IMG/VR virus record: IMGVR_UViG_3300012667_000616
Span: 1 to 30,415 of that record
DNA: 30,415 nt
Reading direction: 5' to 3' (one strand)
Source: a virus
Lineage: Duplodnaviria; Caudoviricetes
Positions 366 through 30,415 of the stretch are shown here, piece after piece (within the stretch, counting starts at the first letter, position 1; every line of letters starts with the position of its first letter). The position numbers were made by a program, and so were the translations under genes. The notes under the pieces are model-generated. The model was not told the origin of the DNA and made no database searches. It saw only the letters and a program-made list of their open reading frames with translations.

Positions 366-802
366 GCGATAACGACACCGAATGCGAGCTAGCAGCGTGG
401 GAGTTGTTGCAATCGACGCGACGCGAGCTTGCCGATGCCAACGCCGAAAACCTTGAGCAGTCCCGACTCCTAGGCATGAGCGCCGAGCGCGAAGCGGACT
501 TACGCGGGGGGCTGGAACGCGAGAAGCGGAGAGCGGATGGGCTTAGGTATGAGATTACCGCCGCCCGCGATGAACGCGACCACTACCTCGGCGAATGCAA
601 CCGCCTCAACTACGAGCTGAGAGCCGAGCGCAAGGCATCGTTCCGCGAGGAACGCGACCGGCTGGCGCAAGCCATCGACGCCGCAACGGTCCTGATCGCA
701 GCGAAAGGCAGGCACAACACGTTTCTCGCTTACGAGGGGCTTCGCGAGGCGCTGGCTGCCGTGAAGGATTCTAGGAACACCCCTGACCAGCCGCCGCGCT
801 AG
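362..802 (+). CDS. Coiled-coil hypothetical phage protein
   Basis: 146-aa E/R/L-rich heptad pattern; ATGA coupling; TAG stop lies inside an attC-like hairpin. Confidence 0.7.
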   Translation: MSDNDTECELAAWELLQSTRRELADANAENLEQSRLLGMSAEREADLRGGLEREKRRADGLRYEITAARDERDHYLGECNRLNYELRAERKASFREERDRLAQAIDAATVLIAAKGRHNTFLAYEGLREALAAVKDSRNTPDQPPR

Positions 803-827
803 CGGTCGGATGCGTCGCACGTTCACC
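772..827 (-). mobile_element. Short attC-like site (inverted relative to genes), slightly degenerate
   Basis: TAGGAAC-6 nt-GACCAGC...GATG(C)GTC-4 nt-GTTCACC; imperfect palindrome with an extra C three bp into the arm; inner stem CCGC-GCTA-GCGG. Confidence 0.55.
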
Positions 828-850
828 TGAAAATATTTTCTCGAATCCCA

Positions 851-902
851 CGAATTTTCTTGAGCACCGCGCCGGATGCGGTAGGTTGAGCGCGTAACCA
901 AC
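851..902 (+). promoter_or_regulatory. Early-type promoter
   Basis: CGAATTTTCT, -35 TTGAGC (860), 16 nt, -10 TAGGTT (882), then AGCGCGTAACCAAC, which is repeated at 1249. Confidence 0.6.
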
Positions 903-916
903 ACCAACCGCCACCC

Positions 917-1135
917 ATGAAGCTCCAAAACACCGTTGCCGCAGTCGCTCAATCTCGCTCCAAGTTCGTCACCATGCACGCGGTCGGAAAGTCCGTTAAT
1001 TCCGGTAATGAGATTTATGGCACAGTGGTCGACGTTCGACTCGGAATCAGCGGAACCGTTTTCATCGACATCAGCCGACACGGACACGTTTACGTCTGTG
1101 ATTCCGAAACGGTTGAGTTGATGGGAAATCCTTGA
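917..1135 (+). CDS. Small hypothetical early protein
   Basis: 72-aa ORF bracketed by its own promoter and terminator. Confidence 0.7.
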   Translation: MKLQNTVAAVAQSRSKFVTMHAVGKSVNSGNEIYGTVVDVRLGISGTVFIDISRHGHVYVCDSETVELMGNP

Positions 1136-1160
1136 TTCTGGCATCTAATGAAAATCACCG

Positions 1161-1191
1161 GCCCGCCTTTCGTAAGATCGGCGGGCTTTTT
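1161..1191 (+). terminator. Rho-independent terminator
   Basis: GCCCGCC/GGCGGGC stem followed by TTTTT. Confidence 0.8.
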
Positions 1192-1210
1192 CGTGCCCTG
1201 AAAAAACTTC

Positions 1211-1262
1211 CGATTTTTCTGGACCTGCCCCCAAAATCCGCCATCCTCAGCGCGTAACCAAC
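1211..1262 (+). promoter_or_regulatory. Early-type promoter (second copy)
   Basis: CGATTTTTCT, TGGACC-16 nt-CATCCT, and the identical 14-mer AGCGCGTAACCAAC (1249-1262). Confidence 0.5.
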
Positions 1263-1272
1263 GACGCACGCA

Positions 1273-1710
1273 ATGAACGCAACGACCACCGCAAACACTC
1301 CTCCCGCAGTATTTACAGTCGGCCAAAAGCTATCCGACCGCTCCGCCTGCGATTGGGATTGCGTTTTTCGCGCAATCGTCATCAAGCGCACTGCGAAGCG
1401 CGTTACCCTTGACCTCGGCCGCGGCGAAGCCAAGACAGTCGGAATCTTCATTGACCATCACGGGAATGAGGCATGTTACCCATTCGGACGATATTCCATG
1501 GCGTCGATTTTTTCGGCTGGTGACAAATACATTGAAGAGACCACGCCCGTCGATGAGACTCAAAGCGGAATTGAAGAGGAATTGGCGATGATTAAAGCCG
1601 CAAGTTTCATCCTTGGCGTTGAAATTGAAGAAGTTATTGATGGCGGCGAAACGCTTCCGGGCAACATCGTTTATCACAATTTCCGCCAACCCGCCCCGCC
1701 CGCCCCGTAA
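1273..1710 (+). CDS. Hypothetical early protein (SH3-like beta N-terminus, acidic C-terminus)
   Basis: 145-aa ORF between promoter and terminator; the fold guess comes from the FTVGQK...VIKRTAKRVTL pattern only. Confidence 0.7.
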   Translation: MNATTTANTPPAVFTVGQKLSDRSACDWDCVFRAIVIKRTAKRVTLDLGRGEAKTVGIFIDHHGNEACYPFGRYSMASIFSAGDKYIEETTPVDETQSGIEEELAMIKAASFILGVEIEEVIDGGETLPGNIVYHNFRQPAPPAP

Positions 1711-1729
1711 AAAGGGCGGGCTTTCTCTT
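1698..1729 (+). terminator. Rho-independent terminator
   Basis: GCCCGCCC/GGGCGGGC stem followed by TTTCTCTT. Confidence 0.7.
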
Positions 1730-1743
1730 CCAGAAACTTCCGC

Positions 1744-1878
1744 TTGACGAAATCGAGCCTTTCAGCTTAATTCGCGTCGTTCCCGATTTGCGGTCGGAAT
1801 CCACCACCTGAAGCTTTGGCAGCAATGCCTTAAGTCCGCTCCCTTCCGACCGCAATCTTTCGGGGAGCGGGCTTTTTC
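1744..1878 (+). promoter_or_regulatory. Promoter plus attenuator-like leader
   Basis: TTGACG-17 nt-TTAATT; terminator stem AAGTCCGCTCCC/GGGAGCGGGCTT plus T-tract; its loop TTCCGACCGCAA (1844-1855) is the exact complement of TTGCGGTCGGAA (1788-1799). Confidence 0.65.
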
Positions 1879-13085: not shown

Positions 13086-13674
13086 CCGCAAAATGCAAGA
13101 CGTTGAACCCGTCTTTACGGAAGAGCTACAAGAGTTCGCGGTTATCATCGCCGAACGGGGGCGAGACAAGCCCAATAGCGCCATTGAGCGGAAGAATCCG
13201 ATGCTTGCCGCGATGGTCCTTGAAATGCGGGCGCGGTCTGTCCCCATGCGGAAGATCAAAGCCGAGACCGGCGTTGACTTCGCCGCGCAGATTCGGCTTG
13301 AGCGCGCCCACGCGGAGCCGATGGAGAAATGGAGAAAGCGGGCGGCGGAAGCCATGGCGCACACCTCCGACCTTGCGCGAAACGTCCTCAACGAAAAGCT
13401 CCACATGCTGCTTGACGACGAGGAGTCGCTCAGATCGACCCGCGTTTCGGAAATCGCCGTTGCAATGGGCGTTTCGACTGATAAAACGATGGCGCTGTCC
13501 GGCATTCCGTCCATGACCATCGAACACAAGAAAGGCGCTTCCCTTGACGATGCGCGGAAGATGATCGAAGCGGCCAAGCAGAAAGTCGCCGAACGGTTGC
13601 GCGGCGATGCTATAGAGGCGACGGTAATTGAAGGTCCAAGCGCGGGCGCGTATTTTGCAAGGGGGGCGGACTAA
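13078..13674 (+). CDS. terS: Probable terminase small subunit
   Basis: Directly upstream of and TAATG-coupled to terL; HTH-like segment plus helical oligomerisation-like region; start moved to ATG 13078. Confidence 0.55.
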   Translation: MSDRKMQDVEPVFTEELQEFAVIIAERGRDKPNSAIERKNPMLAAMVLEMRARSVPMRKIKAETGVDFAAQIRLERAHAEPMEKWRKRAAEAMAHTSDLARNVLNEKLHMLLDDEESLRSTRVSEIAVAMGVSTDKTMALSGIPSMTIEHKKGASLDDARKMIEAAKQKVAERLRGDAIEATVIEGPSAGAYFARGAD

Positions 13675-15677
13675 TGATTACCTTTGCCGAGCATCCAATC
13701 CTCAAGCCGCCAACGGACGAGGAATTGGCAGCGATGGAACCGGAAGAGCTTATCGAGCTTCACCGGGTTTATCATGAGGCACTTGCTAACGCGCAATCAG
13801 ACCCTTACCGCTACGGATTCAAGCCCGACAACTGGAACAAGGCGGGCGAGCTTTGGGATGACTTTAACGAGTTGCTTGTGCTAGGTGGAAACCGCTGCTT
13901 GGCACCGGATCAAGAAATCTTTGACCCGGTTGCCAAGGTATCGCGCCCCGTCAGTCAGATTGACGGGCCATTTCACGTTTGGGCGTGGGATGGTCAACGA
14001 AAAGTGGTAGCTTTTGCTGAGAAGCCATTTCGGAAGCCTCAAGCAGAGATTTTCCGAGTTTCTTTAGATAACGGCGAAGCTCTGAGTTGTTCAGCGGCTC
14101 ACTTGCTCCTGACTCCCGACGGATGGAAGCCTTTAGGTGCGCTCTCGCCCGGCGATGCTCTGGTGAGTTCCGAGCCCGAATCTAGAACCGTTAGAATTTC
14201 ATGGATTGGACACCTCCGAACGGATTGGGTGTGGGATTTTACCGTTCCCACATACGAGAATTACGTCGCGGCTGGCGTCGTTTCCCACAATTCATCGAAA
14301 ACCCGCTTTGGCGCATGGGCGGTTGTCAAAGCCGCCATAGAAAACCCCGGCAGCATCATCTATTGCTTTTGCCAAAACGCGGAGGCGTCGGAAAAGCTGC
14401 AGCAGCCCGCCGTTTACGAATGGTTGCCGTCCGAATACAAGGCGAAGCAAACCAGCGAATCGGCTTACATTAGCTTTTCGCAGAAGAACGGATTCACGGG
14501 CGGCGACTTCATCTTGCCTAACGGAAGCCGCGTCATCTTCAAGACCTACACACAGTATTTGCAAAACCCGACGATTCTGGAAGGCGCGGAACTAGGAAGC
14601 CGGTCGCCCGAATGGCAGAATATTGGGGTTTGGCTCGACGAGTATCTTGTTGGACCCGAGCTGATTTCAACGCTCCGATTCCGACTTGCGACCCGTAACG
14701 CGAAGATGCTTGTTACGTTCACCCCGATTGACGGTTGGACGGAAGTAATCAAGGACTTCCTCGACGGCGCGGCGACACTTGAGCGCAAGCCTGCCGAACT
14801 GCTACAGGGGGAGCTTGTCCCGTTCATCCAAAAGAGCAAGAACCGCAGCGCGGGCATCATTTACTTTCATTCGCAAGACAACCCATTTGGCGGTTACGAG
14901 CGGATCAAGAAAGACCTTGCCGGACGGTCCCGCGAGGACATCCTCATTCGCGCCTATGGCGTGCCAGTCAAGTCCGCCGCAACCAAATTTCCCAAGTTCT
15001 CAACAGACACAAACGTCATCCCGCACGACAAGATTCCGACCGAGAATGTCTCACGGTTTCAGATCATTGACCCATCGGGCAGCAAGAACTGGTTTTGCGT
15101 ATGGATCGCCGTTGACATTACCGGCACGTATTACGTTTACCGTGAATGGCCGGGTGTCAACGTCGGTGATTGGGCCGAGTGGAGAAGCGGGAAATGGATG
15201 CCGGGCGAGGGGGCGAAGGGGCTTGGCTACGGCATCCGGGATTACGTCGATTTGTTCTTGTCCATGGAGGGCGGCGAAAAGATCGAAGAAAGACTAATCG
15301 ACCCGCGACTTGGGGCGGCGAAATACACCGCAAACGACCACGCCAGCAGCATCATTGAGGACTTGGCGGATCAAGACTTCATTTGCATCCCAGCGCCCGG
15401 ATTGGAGATCGACGACGGACTGCAAGCTCTCATTTCAAAGATGAGCTATGACACCTCAAGGCCGCTCGACGCGATGAACCGTCCGCGATTCTACATTTCA
15501 GAACATTGCGACAATACGATTCGCGCACTTGGGGAATACACGGCGGAAGCAGGGCTGAAAGAGGCGTGGAAAGACCCGATTGATTGCCTCCGATATGCTT
15601 GCGTTTCCAATATCGAGCATTTCGACGGGTCCGCCCGATGCACTGTGCAAAGGACATCGAAAGTTGGCGGGTATTGA
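13674..15677 (+). CDS. terL: Terminase large subunit interrupted by an intein
   Basis: Walker A GGNR/SSKT, Walker B VWLDE, motif III VTFTP, RNase H-like IIDPS and DPIDCLRY. Confidence 0.95.
   Translation: MITFAEHPILKPPTDEELAAMEPEELIELHRVYHEALANAQSDPYRYGFKPDNWNKAGELWDDFNELLVLGGNRCLAPDQEIFDPVAKVSRPVSQIDGPFHVWAWDGQRKVVAFAEKPFRKPQAEIFRVSLDNGEALSCSAAHLLLTPDGWKPLGALSPGDALVSSEPESRTVRISWIGHLRTDWVWDFTVPTYENYVAAGVVSHNSSKTRFGAWAVVKAAIENPGSIIYCFCQNAEASEKLQQPAVYEWLPSEYKAKQTSESAYISFSQKNGFTGGDFILPNGSRVIFKTYTQYLQNPTILEGAELGSRSPEWQNIGVWLDEYLVGPELISTLRFRLATRNAKMLVTFTPIDGWTEVIKDFLDGAATLERKPAELLQGELVPFIQKSKNRSAGIIYFHSQDNPFGGYERIKKDLAGRSREDILIRAYGVPVKSAATKFPKFSTDTNVIPHDKIPTENVSRFQIIDPSGSKNWFCVWIAVDITGTYYVYREWPGVNVGDWAEWRSGKWMPGEGAKGLGYGIRDYVDLFLSMEGGEKIEERLIDPRLGAAKYTANDHASSIIEDLADQDFICIPAPGLEIDDGLQALISKMSYDTSRPLDAMNRPRFYISEHCDNTIRALGEYTAEAGLKEAWKDPIDCLRYACVSNIEHFDGSARCTVQRTSKVGGY
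13896..14291 (+). mobile_element. Mini-intein (132 aa) in the TerL P-loop
   Basis: Begins CLAPDQ; block B SAAHLLLT; block F VWDFTVP; ends SHN followed by Ser+1; no endonuclease domain. Confidence 0.92.
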
Positions 15678-27551: not shown

Positions 27552-27775
27552 ATCCGCCAGAGACAGCGCCAAGAGACTGCATCATTCTAGCGGATTTCGG
27601 CTGGCCTTGGATTCTCCCGGCGCGATGGAATCCGATTGATGGCAAGTGGGCGACCGTCACGCTGCAATGCGGGCCAGTGGATGGCCAGTGGGAGGACTAC
27701 TATTTCGAGTCCGAGCAAGAGCTGGATTCTGACCTTAAAGGCTGGCTGCCGACGCCGGTTGTTGCGCGAAGGTAA
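27548..27775 (+). CDS. DUF551-like small protein
   Basis: PETAPRD...GWLPTP termini; ATGA coupling. Confidence 0.65.
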   Translation: MNPPETAPRDCIILADFGWPWILPARWNPIDGKWATVTLQCGPVDGQWEDYYFESEQELDSDLKGWLPTPVVARR

Positions 27776-27844
27776 GCCGGGGCCGGGAATCGAACCCGGA
27801 GCAATCGCCTTGAGACGATCATGTTACCATTACACCACCCCCGC
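27775..27844 (-). tRNA. Degenerate tRNA (Gly-like body, 6-nt anticodon loop)
   Basis: GCGGGGG/CCCCGGC acceptor (G3:G70 mismatch), D-arm GTGT-AATGGTA-ACAT, perfect T-arm CCGGG-TTCGATT-CCCGG, U73; anticodon arm ATCGT-CTCAAG-GCGAT. Confidence 0.7.
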
Positions 27845-29047: not shown

Positions 29048-29358
29048 CACCAGAAGCACAACGAATCGCGATTGCAGAGGCTTGCGGGTGGAATCGAGAG
29101 GACTCTTTGTTCTGCCGCGCTCAAGGATGGCGAGGGCCTCAAGGCCAGTGGTATTCTCCGCTGCCGCCCGATTACATCAACGACCTCGACGCAATGCACG
29201 AAGCGGAGAAAGTAATTCTTGACAATTGTGGAACTTGGACGCGTTACGTAACTGAACTCAAGTTTCAATCAGCGAAAAATGGAATACCTCACTTCCATTT
29301 GACCGCCGCCCAACGAGCCGAAGCGTTCCTGCGAACCCTCAACCTCTGGCAAAAATGA
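29044..29358 (+). CDS. Phage ABA-sandwich-like hypothetical protein
   Basis: AIAEACGW...PDYINDLDAMHEAE...TAAQRAEAFL pattern. Confidence 0.6.
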   Translation: MTPEAQRIAIAEACGWNREDSLFCRAQGWRGPQGQWYSPLPPDYINDLDAMHEAEKVILDNCGTWTRYVTELKFQSAKNGIPHFHLTAAQRAEAFLRTLNLWQK

Positions 29359-29669
29359 CATTGTGGGCTAAGCGAACCGACGCGAACCACGCAGAGATCC
29401 GCGACGCGATGCGGGCGGCAGGCGCGGAGGTTGAGGACCTGAGCGGCTGCGGAAAGGGGATGCCGGACACGCTGGTGCTTACGATGGACGGCAGGCTACT
29501 CTTGGTCGAAATCAAGACCGCCACCGGCAAGCTGACCGCGCCGCAAGTGAAGTTCCACGCACGATTCCCGGTTTACGTGATTCGGAGCGTTGAGGAAGCG
29601 GTCAAGCTAATTGCGAACGCAATAGGTGACTCGCGGCGAGCGGGAAGCCCGAATCAACAAGGCGGCTAG
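29355..29669 (+). CDS. VRR-NUC / PD-(D/E)xK nuclease
   Basis: RTDANH, GMPD, LVEIK and LTAPQVKF motifs; stop lies inside the attC-like site. Confidence 0.8.
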   Translation: MTLWAKRTDANHAEIRDAMRAAGAEVEDLSGCGKGMPDTLVLTMDGRLLLVEIKTATGKLTAPQVKFHARFPVYVIRSVEEAVKLIANAIGDSRRAGSPNQQGG

Positions 29670-29699
29670 TCGCCGTCGATGTCCACCGTCTTGTTGGGC
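29612..29699 (-). mobile_element. attC-like site (inverted relative to genes)
   Basis: TGCGAAC-6 nt-GGTGAC...GTC(C)ACC-5 nt-GTTGGGC; attC-type 6/5 spacing with an extrahelical base; inner GCGGCGA/TCGCCGT. Confidence 0.75.
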
Positions 29700-29730
29700 A
29701 TCTTTGAGTCACTAACCAACCCCAATAAAT

Positions 29731-30054
29731 ATGATCGCCACGACCCACCAAATAGACGCCGCAATCGAGGCATACCAACGCAAGCGCGAACCTCACGGCG
29801 ACTCTCAGAATCACCGTGACGCACTCGGAGACGCTCTTCGCACCGTGCGCCCGTTCAAGTCCATGGAACTCCTGACCGCGGAAACCGCTTACGGGCATCA
29901 CCGATCCCCCGCAAGATGGGATGGCGTGCCGTGGGGCGAGTGCGGCACGAAGAACCACCGCGCCGGAATCCGCGCCGCTCTTAATTCTCTGCACAACGTC
30001 CGCCCTCTGGCACCTGCCGACAATCAAACTCCAAAACAAAATGGCCACTCCTAA
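29731..30054 (+). CDS. Cassette-borne hypothetical protein
   Basis: 107-aa ORF between two attC-like sites; stop lies in the loop of the second. Confidence 0.65.
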   Translation: MIATTHQIDAAIEAYQRKREPHGDSQNHRDALGDALRTVRPFKSMELLTAETAYGHHRSPARWDGVPWGECGTKNHRAGIRAALNSLHNVRPLAPADNQTPKQNGHS

Positions 30055-30115
30055 CGACATCCCAGCGCCGACGAAACCACTGATGGCAGGTTGCCAGCAG
30101 GAGCCTTGTTCTCTG
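29991..30115 (-). mobile_element. attC-like site (inverted) with a long variable loop
   Basis: GCACAAC-6 nt-CCT.CTGGCA.CCTGCC ... GGCAGG(T)TGCCAG(C)AGG-6 nt-GTTCTCTG; 15-bp stem with two extrahelical bases. Confidence 0.75.
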
Positions 30116-30415
30116 TCTTCGACGCCGGACACCGATGCGGTGAAGGTGAATCAAGGCCGAGGAATCTGGATCGTGAACGCCGAATACATGGCCGAAATGG
30201 AACGGCAACGTGACATACTCAAGGCCGCTGGATACGTGCTGAAGGAAGCCGTCGAAAAGCTACTGGATAGCGACGAGCAACTGAAGACGACGACCGACGA
30301 GGATCTTGAGCAAGCGATGGAAAACGGCTACGCGGCGGAGATCCGAACGCAGGCCGAAACCATCCTGCTCGCCCGGAAAGCTATAGGGATGACGAACTAC
30401 CTATTTCCAGAGAAC
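30041..30415 (+). CDS. Cassette-borne hypothetical protein, truncated by the window end
   Basis: Open for 125 codons (MATPNDIP...STPDTDA...AEMERQRD...LFPEN); starts inside the attC-like loop. Confidence 0.65.
   Translation, partial: MATPNDIPAPTKPLMAGCQQEPCSLSSTPDTDAVKVNQGRGIWIVNAEYMAEMERQRDILKAAGYVLKEAVEKLLDSDEQLKTTTDEDLEQAMENGYAAEIRTQAETILLARKAIGMTNYLFPEN

What the first reader, a model, noticed from the sequence alone, without database searches (positions are those of the whole stretch)
29640..30115. The attC-like sites are inverted and double as translation punctuation
Seen: the longer arm with the extra base is on the right, so the sites face opposite to the usual gene-attC polarity. Upstream ORFs read into the sites and stop in the loops (TAG 29667-29669, TAA 30052-30054, also TAG 800-802). 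The next ORF starts inside the loop at ATG 30041 after an A-rich leader and reads through the right arm (AGCQQEPCSL). Among the genes I called, the only two TAG stops lie in these elements. Inference: the sites supply start and stop signals, so reshuffling would swap protein termini and keep translational coupling; the inversion may alter which strand folds and so tune excision rate.
Basis: partly seen in the sequence, partly recalled or inferred. Interest (0 to 1): 0.7.

Follow-up and report, generated by a model that had tools for sequence, protein, structure and literature searches.

The report
Back-to-front integron cassettes in a phage
This phage carries small genes between folded DNA sites of the kind bacterial integrons use to swap genes, but the genes run the opposite way, so each site ends the gene before it and one site likely also holds the next gene's start; some related phages carry such rows next to their own integrase gene, which likely makes this a phage-side gene-swapping system.

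Summary
Observation confirmed. A 30.4-kb phage contig holds integron attC sites of Verrucomicrobiaceae type at 29616-29695, 29995-30110 and 776-823; a fourth is cut off by the contig end. Genes lie on the attC bottom strand, opposite to the arrays of two bacterial genomes. The crossover AAC is an in-frame Asn at all four positions, and in 59 of 71 read-ins at related sites. Inter-site segments have self-complementary ends, as true cassettes do. Homologues switch C-terminal tails at that Asn. The 30041 start is supported: 19 of 20 copies of this site keep an in-frame loop ATG. Corrections: the 29616 site supplies no start; integrase shuffling would swap C-tails while N-termini travel with their gene (N-termini change by a separate, apparently slower site replacement); TAG is not special; the bottom strand still folds best. 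Related phages carry intI, an attI-like site and such arrays in normal integron geometry with only the genes reversed; this contig has no integrase. Phage attC clusters are published; the reversed design was not found in nine literature searches. This scan has noted it before in at least 17 other genomes.

The parts
29355..29669 (+). VRR-NUC endonuclease gene, left anchor of the array; its last 18 codons (from the Asn) and the TAG come from site A
   Evidence: Pfam PF08774 E 2e-5 and PHROG 93 over residues 14-96. A contig in run X4 carries a homologue followed by a different attC arm right after AACG 29619 (one contig, depth 2).
29616..29695 (-). attC site A (top strand on minus), canonical 5/6 spacers, extra base on the right arm; predicted crossover AA|C at 29617/29618
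   Evidence: 50.8 bits, E 8e-12; predicted folding probability low, 0.01
29618..29996 (+). cassette 1 (predicted unit): site A plus gene 29731; ends GTT-GGGCA and TGCAC-AAC complementary at 4 of 5
29731..30054 (+). 107-aa gene of unknown function; starts outside site A, takes its last 19 codons and TAA from site B
   Evidence: homologues share the N-terminus MIATT and differ after the Asn; one is from Luteolibacter pohnpeiensis
29995..30110 (-). attC site B, 116 bp, 6/6 spacers; holds the stop of 29731 and the likely start of 30041; member of a site family found in 20 distinct contexts
   Evidence: 32.3 bits
29997..30414 (+). cassette 2 (predicted unit): site B plus gene 30041; ends GTT-CTCTG and CAGAG-AAC complementary at 5 of 5
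30041..30415 (+). gene of unknown function, likely starting in the loop of site B after an A-rich leader; runs off the contig
   Evidence: P0021 gives the full 141-aa form
30413..30415 (-). left end (AAC) of a further site cut off by the contig end
   Evidence: in frame; own-end match; a 16-residue tail follows in P0001, P0021 and P0022
362..802 (+). 146-aa gene that reads in frame into site 0 and stops at TAG 800-802
776..823 (-). site 0: short degenerate attC-like hairpin (4/6 spacers) that likely closes the array at the place where attI sits in integrase-bearing relatives
   Evidence: E 0.03; near-identical last site of an array in L191, with identity starting at GAAC and running on into the right flank; no cassette end to its right

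Best explanation
These are integron-type gene cassettes with the gene on the attC bottom strand, likely cut and rejoined at AA|C by an integron integrase that this phage would have to borrow from its host or another phage. Shown by sequence and comparison: attC geometry, reversed gene polarity, cassette-like complementary ends, the in-frame Asn, tails that switch at it, and relatives with intI plus an attI-like site at the end of such arrays. Inferred: the moving unit is site plus downstream gene; the array is read from upstream as part of a phage operon; AA from one unit and C from the next always rebuild Asn, so any incoming site supplies a short tail and a stop; a start inside the loop removes the gap of 50-120 nt that the hairpin would otherwise put between genes and couples translation. 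Site 776-823 is the likely resident end site. If these genes run with replication (unknown), the recombining strand would be the lagging-strand template, which favours excision.
For: Polarity: in the arrays of two Verrucomicrobiaceae genomes (L131-L133) genes lie on the top strand; in phage-like loci on the bottom strand. DNA methyltransferase domains on the bottom strand begin at residue 24-28, just after the arm. Cassette ends: 3.74 of 4 complementary within a segment against 1.95 across a site (42 segments; 37 higher, 1 lower; 0 of 5000 permutations as high). Frame lock: 10 of 12, 32 of 33 and 17 of 26 read-ins are frame 0. Site B family: sequence turns conserved at AAC; stop at +57 in 17 of 20 as TAA, TGA or TAG; loop ATG in 19 of 20. 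Swap points: X4 contig; tails of P0001-P0004 and P0011-P0020; L182 holds a tandem copy of site plus downstream gene with two different tails. Enzyme: in 46 viral loci with an IntI-like gene, 57 sites have the bottom strand on the intI strand and 1 the reverse. In L140, L141, L142 and L182 the last cassette ends in a hairpin-less AAC 48-53 nt before intI. These integrases match TIGR02249 over its length and keep the catalytic motifs and the IntI-type insertion (motif names recalled). Phage attC sites are substrates of IntI1 (PMC9892861).
Against: No tyrosine recombinase in this contig (82% complete, about 2.8 kb missing by one relative) and no copy of the attI-like motif. Only 1 of 11 incomplete viral records with such sites had an IntI-like hit. 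Three of five phage integrases tested score below the TIGR02249 cut-off (244-251 against 265). Site A is predicted to fold poorly (0.01) and site 0 no better on the bottom than on the top strand. In run X1 identity with the window starts at 29670, inside the loop of site A, not at AAC. Site B sits before many unrelated bodies, and the same body can carry different sites, which the bottom-strand cut alone does not explain. No excised circle, transcript or peptide was observed. Sites are related, so the counts are not independent events.
Confidence: 0.8

Rival explanations
1. The sites are relics of integron origin that now act only as shared homology blocks and translation linkers; genes are exchanged by homologous recombination inside the sites, without an integrase.
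For: No integrase in this contig. Near-identical site B copies in 20 contexts. Breakpoint inside the loop of site A in X1. Low predicted folding of site A.
Against: Arms and extra bases are kept across diverse sites (partly circular because the sites were chosen for pairing). Segment ends stay complementary. Tails switch between unrelated sites right at AAC. Relatives keep intact intI genes and attI-like sites. It may still act as a second route.
Confidence: 0.12
2. Ordinary host cassettes were inserted backwards or flipped between their GTT and AAC ends, and the plus-strand frames are chance overlaps.
For: An open frame of 176 codons lies on the minus strand at 29602-30132. The sites closely resemble host sites.
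Against: The plus-strand proteins have homologues down to 56% identity, and known domains lie on the bottom strand. The five bases at +5 to +9 after GTT are pyrimidine-rich in phage-like and bacterial arrays alike (purine fraction 0.27 and 0.29; about 0.77 expected if flipped). The frame lock is far from one third.
Confidence: 0.04
3. The hairpins are RNA elements (terminators, processing sites or repeats) and the likeness to attC is incidental.
For: They lie in transcribed, translated regions, and attC sites are reported to act on translation (PMC8876359 passages).
Against: No Rfam match except a tRNA elsewhere. Same geometry as the sites of IntI-bearing bacteria. Fixed polarity to intI. Complementary cassette ends have no RNA rationale.
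Confidence: 0.04

Closest known systems
CALINs and integrons in phage genomes (Qi et al. 2023, PMC9892861)
   Same: Clusters of attC sites between small phage genes, often methyltransferases, with no integrase; 5 of 6 tested sites recombined by IntI1 through the bottom strand. In phage TJE1 genes also read into the sites.
   Different: TJE1 has normal polarity. The text I read (parts 1-4 of 7, plus a term search of the supplement) describes neither genes on the bottom strand, starts in the loop, a locked frame, nor a phage integrase clade; its complete integrons are host-derived or class 1. Its figures were not visible to me.
Chromosomal integrons of Verrucomicrobiaceae (IntI, attI, attC; here L131-L135)
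   Same: Same attC arm sequences and geometry, G after AAC, complementary cassette ends, intI opposite to the attC top strand.
   Different: Their genes are on the top strand, upstream of their own site; a loop start reading out on the bottom strand occurs at 1 of 12 sites against 40 of 65.
Inverted-integrase integrons (Treponema group; PMC4889954, PMC13323075 passages)
   Same: intI and cassette genes end up on the same strand.
   Different: There intI is turned relative to attC; here intI keeps its normal relation to attC and the attI-like site, and only the cargo genes are turned.
Translation through attI and attC in class 1 integrons (ORF-11; short ORFs within attC; PMC8876359 passages)
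   Same: A recombination site supplies start or stop signals and couples translation.
   Different: Those are short helper ORFs on the top strand; here the cargo gene itself begins inside its own site on the bottom strand.

Membership tests
attC site | AAC and GTT triplets at the ends, R-L arms with unpaired central spacers of about 5 and 6 nt | tested here: met
   site A 5/6, site B 6/6, site 0 4/6; model hits. Sites B and 0 deviate by one base.
attC site | extra-helical base on one arm that fixes the recombining strand; G after the AAC of R' | tested here: met
   right arm on + at all three sites; AACG at A and B, AACA at site 0
attC site | recombined by IntI as a folded bottom strand | not testable with these tools
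   folding probability only predicted: A 0.01, B 0.13, site 0 0.25
integron gene cassette | unit ends that restore full R'/R'' pairing on circularisation | tested here: met
   4 of 5 and 5 of 5 in the window; 3.74 of 4 over 42 segments
integron gene cassette | gene on the top strand, upstream of its own attC | tested here: not met
   genes on the bottom strand, downstream of or starting in their site
integron gene cassette | mobile: same unit in other neighbourhoods with a break at the crossover point | tested here: met
   tails switch at Asn; X4 contig; one counter-case with a break inside the loop (X1)
complete integron | intI gene beside the array | tested here: not met
   none in this contig, which is 82% complete; present in relatives L140-L142, L144, L182
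complete integron | attI next to the 5' end of intI | tested here: not met
   motif absent from the window; attI-like site in L139, L140, L142, L144 by exact motif and in L141, L182 by position; function untested
complete integron | Pc promoter driving cassettes away from intI | not tested
   gene direction in relatives points towards intI, so a Pc could not drive them (inference)
CALIN | two or more attC sites close together on one strand with no neighbouring intI | tested here: met
   sites A and B 299 nt apart, same strand; no integrase in the held sequence

The most novel reading that the evidence does not exclude
Phages run their own branch of the integron system: a clade of phage integrases with its own attI, and a pool of cassettes built on the bottom strand in which the attC site doubles as an exchangeable stop-and-start module with a locked Asn junction. 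Integrase-less phages like this one draw on the pool in trans and use a degenerate hairpin as their entry site. Because one site is joined to many unrelated genes at a sharp point just past its right arm, these arrays record how new cassettes are made, a long-open question.
Probability: 0.5. Interest if true: 0.82.

Novelty: new variant of a known kind. Interest (0 to 1): 0.66.

Why it matters
Integron cassettes are thought to keep one gene polarity because the host promoter must read them. A mirror-image design with a locked reading frame shows the same recombination chemistry adapted to a phage operon. It offers a site-specific route for the mosaic small-gene regions of phages, including methyltransferases that may protect against host restriction. 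It also affects annotation: many unrelated phage proteins share a false N-terminal or C-terminal 'homology' that is only attC sequence (5 of 9 hits). The sharp joins of one site to many genes give a testable handle on cassette genesis.

Tried and rejected
Protein-pattern scans of viral contigs with ORF 30041 found nothing, and with the VRR-NUC gene one distant site-less locus. Site B has no match among 50,697 GenBank phage records and none in 4 of 5 viral records tested. Rfam: only a tRNA. The repeat finder's listed families did not show the sites. Comparing the minus-strand frame with P0011 was uninformative by design. No RNA holder listed; this says nothing on expression. Laid contigs were assemblies, not reads, and showed no joint at the sites; the two joints listed have sides under 30 letters and were ignored. 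Of 120 pattern matches, 82 lacked the left-arm motif and were dropped. Near-duplicate loci were removed. The inverted and canonical groups were assigned by eye, so the contrast is not fully independent. One search is partly circular. The integrase tree has no outgroup and says nothing on origin. Rejected: special meaning of TAG; flipped host cassettes; a change in which strand folds; a fixed frame at the right arm (phases 20/13/7 outside the site B family). Literature: nine searches found no description of the reversed design; the library lacks most subscription journals and bioRxiv supplements were closed.

Full report
Context. The window is a whole 30,415-base virus record, linear and estimated 82% complete. 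It encodes an SU10-type capsid protein, an endolysin and virion proteins, with nearly all genes on the + strand. A homologue of ORF 29731 comes from Luteolibacter pohnpeiensis and the sites resemble those of Verrucomicrobiaceae genomes, so the host is likely of that family (inference).

The sites run from AAC to GTT at 29616-29695 (A), 29995-30110 (B) and 776-823 (site 0), and the contig ends on a fourth AAC. A geometry scan scored A and B at 24 and 25, against at most 20 in 12 shuffled windows; site 0 scored 17. A covariance model from 37 other sites recovered A, B and site 0 as its three best hits, all in bottom-strand orientation on +. Bouvier et al. (PMC2727003, passages) state that one extra-helical base picks the strand and that G usually follows the AAC of R'. 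Both markers make + the bottom strand at A and B; G follows the left AAC at 83 of 86 non-bacterial sites and never follows it on the other strand.

The polarity is reversed and general. Pattern scans brought 100 distinct sites. In the three bacterial loci an open frame of 50 codons or more approaches from the top strand at 11 of 14 sites and from the bottom strand at 3 of 14. In viral records it approaches from the bottom strand at 16 of 17, although with their high GC a top-strand frame is also open at 13 of 17. Segment coverage and methyltransferase domains that begin at residues 24-28, just after the arm, fix the bottom strand as coding in the phage-like loci. Both bacterial genomes encode an integron integrase above the family cut-off. 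Phage TJE1, an example in Qi et al., has normal polarity.

The segments are cassettes. The bases after a site's GTT pair with the bases before the next site's AAC: 3.74 of 4 over 42 segments, against 1.95 for the same site's own left flank. In the window the matches are 4 of 5 and 5 of 5; the latter shows that the final AAC is a site end. This test does not say which site belongs to the segment. The known cut in R' (PMC5371416 and PMC2727003 passages; exact AA|C position recalled) makes it the left one. L182 agrees: site plus downstream gene is duplicated, with two different tails. A contig in run X4 carries the VRR-NUC gene followed by a different arm right after AACG (one low-depth contig). 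Against a single mechanism, a contig in X1 is identical to the window only from 29670, inside the loop of site A.

Translation punctuation. All four AACs are in-frame Asn codons. Among genes that read into a site, frame 0 is used in 10 of 12 viral, 32 of 33 metagenomic and 17 of 26 integrase-linked cases; the other sites had short flanks, no long frame or an earlier stop. Homologues of ORF 29731 keep their N-terminus and change after the Asn; two distant ones lack the tail. Homologues of ORF 30041 have different tails, and P0004 starts about where the site ends. In 20 contexts of site B the frame-0 stop lies at +57 in 17 (11 TAA, 5 TGA, 1 TAG), and 19 have a loop ATG in the frame that reads through the right arm, at six offsets. 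Across 80 sites of reversed arrays, 55 have such an ATG, 16 of them as an ATGA overlap, and 20 have no other in-frame ATG in the first third of the gene; 1 of 12 canonical sites has one (groups set by eye). None of 28 window genes has a GGAG or GAGG leader, and the leader of 30041 is 58% A against a gene mean of 35%, so an A-rich start fits this phage. None of this is expression data. Site A gives no start. TAG is a minority stop elsewhere.

N-termini. Five of nine hits to ORF 30041 share only the site-encoded N-terminal peptide. Two pairs of homologous bodies (77-79% identical from the sixth base after GTT) carry different sites. So sites are also replaced at the right arm, apparently more slowly. 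Candidates are top-strand recombination, exchange between sites, or whatever creates cassettes; group IIC introns that invade attC sites are another lead (PMC8876359 passage). This step is unexplained. The bodies are not flipped host cassettes.

The enzyme. This contig has no tyrosine recombinase. One of 11 viral records with such sites, the one that also carries a site B copy, begins with an IntI-like gene. Searching with it gave 53 viral loci. Among the 46 best, 23 have sites, 57 of them with the bottom strand on the intI strand and 1 the other way: normal integron geometry. In L141 about ten sites lead, between a RusA-like gene and a terminase small subunit gene, to a last cassette that ends in a hairpin-less AAC 51 nt before intI. 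L140, L142 and L182 are built alike, and L139, L140, L142 and L144 share the motif AACAG-N-TGATTAA. All these genes point towards intI. Five of these integrases form a supported group in an unrooted tree of 36 rows (99/97); two of five tested pass the TIGR02249 cut-off and three fall just below. A few loci (L145, L151) look canonical or mixed. In the window the array appears to end at site 0, which recurs as the last site in L191 with the same right flank and is followed by non-coding DNA and small genes, not by intI. A relative suggests about 2.8 kb between the contig's end and start, so an integrase there is not excluded; supply in trans is more likely (inference).

Folding. The bottom strand is predicted to form the recombination hairpin more readily than the top at 79 of 84 non-bacterial and 13 of 13 bacterial-type sites; site B follows (0.13 against 0.02), sites A and 0 do not. 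Loot et al. (PMC5371416, passages) show more excision when the bottom strand is the lagging-strand template. With genes running along replication, the reversed design would give that arrangement, but the origin here is unknown.

Known and new. Qi et al. (PMC9892861; parts 1-4 of 7 and a supplement term search) established active attC clusters in phages. The inverted-integrase integrons (PMC4889954, PMC13323075; passages) turn intI, not the genes. PMC8618304 and bioRxiv 2025.06.18.660453 (passages) held nothing relevant. Nine searches found no description of the reversed design. The scan's own notes report it in at least 17 other genomes; I reached my reading before seeing them and count them as leads only. 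Verdict: a real, new variant of integron cassettes; interest 0.66.

Noticed in passing
window 840-1750: Two small genes (917-1135, 1273-1710) each follow a copy of AGCGCGTAACCAAC (about 889 and 1249) and are followed by a terminator-like hairpin. Contigs of run X4 show the first copy followed by another gene, and the second gene placed behind a first-type upstream sequence: a second, non-attC kind of swappable module.
   Followed up: no
window 27775-27844, minus strand: A tRNA gene against the direction of all neighbouring genes (Rfam).
   Followed up: no
window 13674-15677: Large gene, likely the terminase, with a weak intein-splicing hit at residues 178-206 (below cut-off).
   Followed up: no
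L029, L030, L052, L056, L068: Arrays of related sites in which bottom-strand frames start before the site and read right through it instead of stopping in the loop; the polarity of the real genes was not settled.
   Followed up: partly
P0018 (homologue of window 29731-30054): The Asn junction is replaced and the protein runs on to 213 residues, apparently fused to the next gene; one record only.
   Followed up: no
L182:8132-9512: Exact tandem copy of one cassette directly before intI, the two gene copies ending in different tails.
   Followed up: partly
site B family, bases +5 to +9 after GTT: TCTTC is kept at 80-95% in front of unrelated genes, and a T-rich patch lies 7-10 bases before AAC: possible marks of how cassettes are made.
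   Followed up: partly
L012 (phage TJE1) 77-1467: In this normal-polarity phage cluster two genes also read in frame through AAC into their attC sites and stop inside them.
   Followed up: partly
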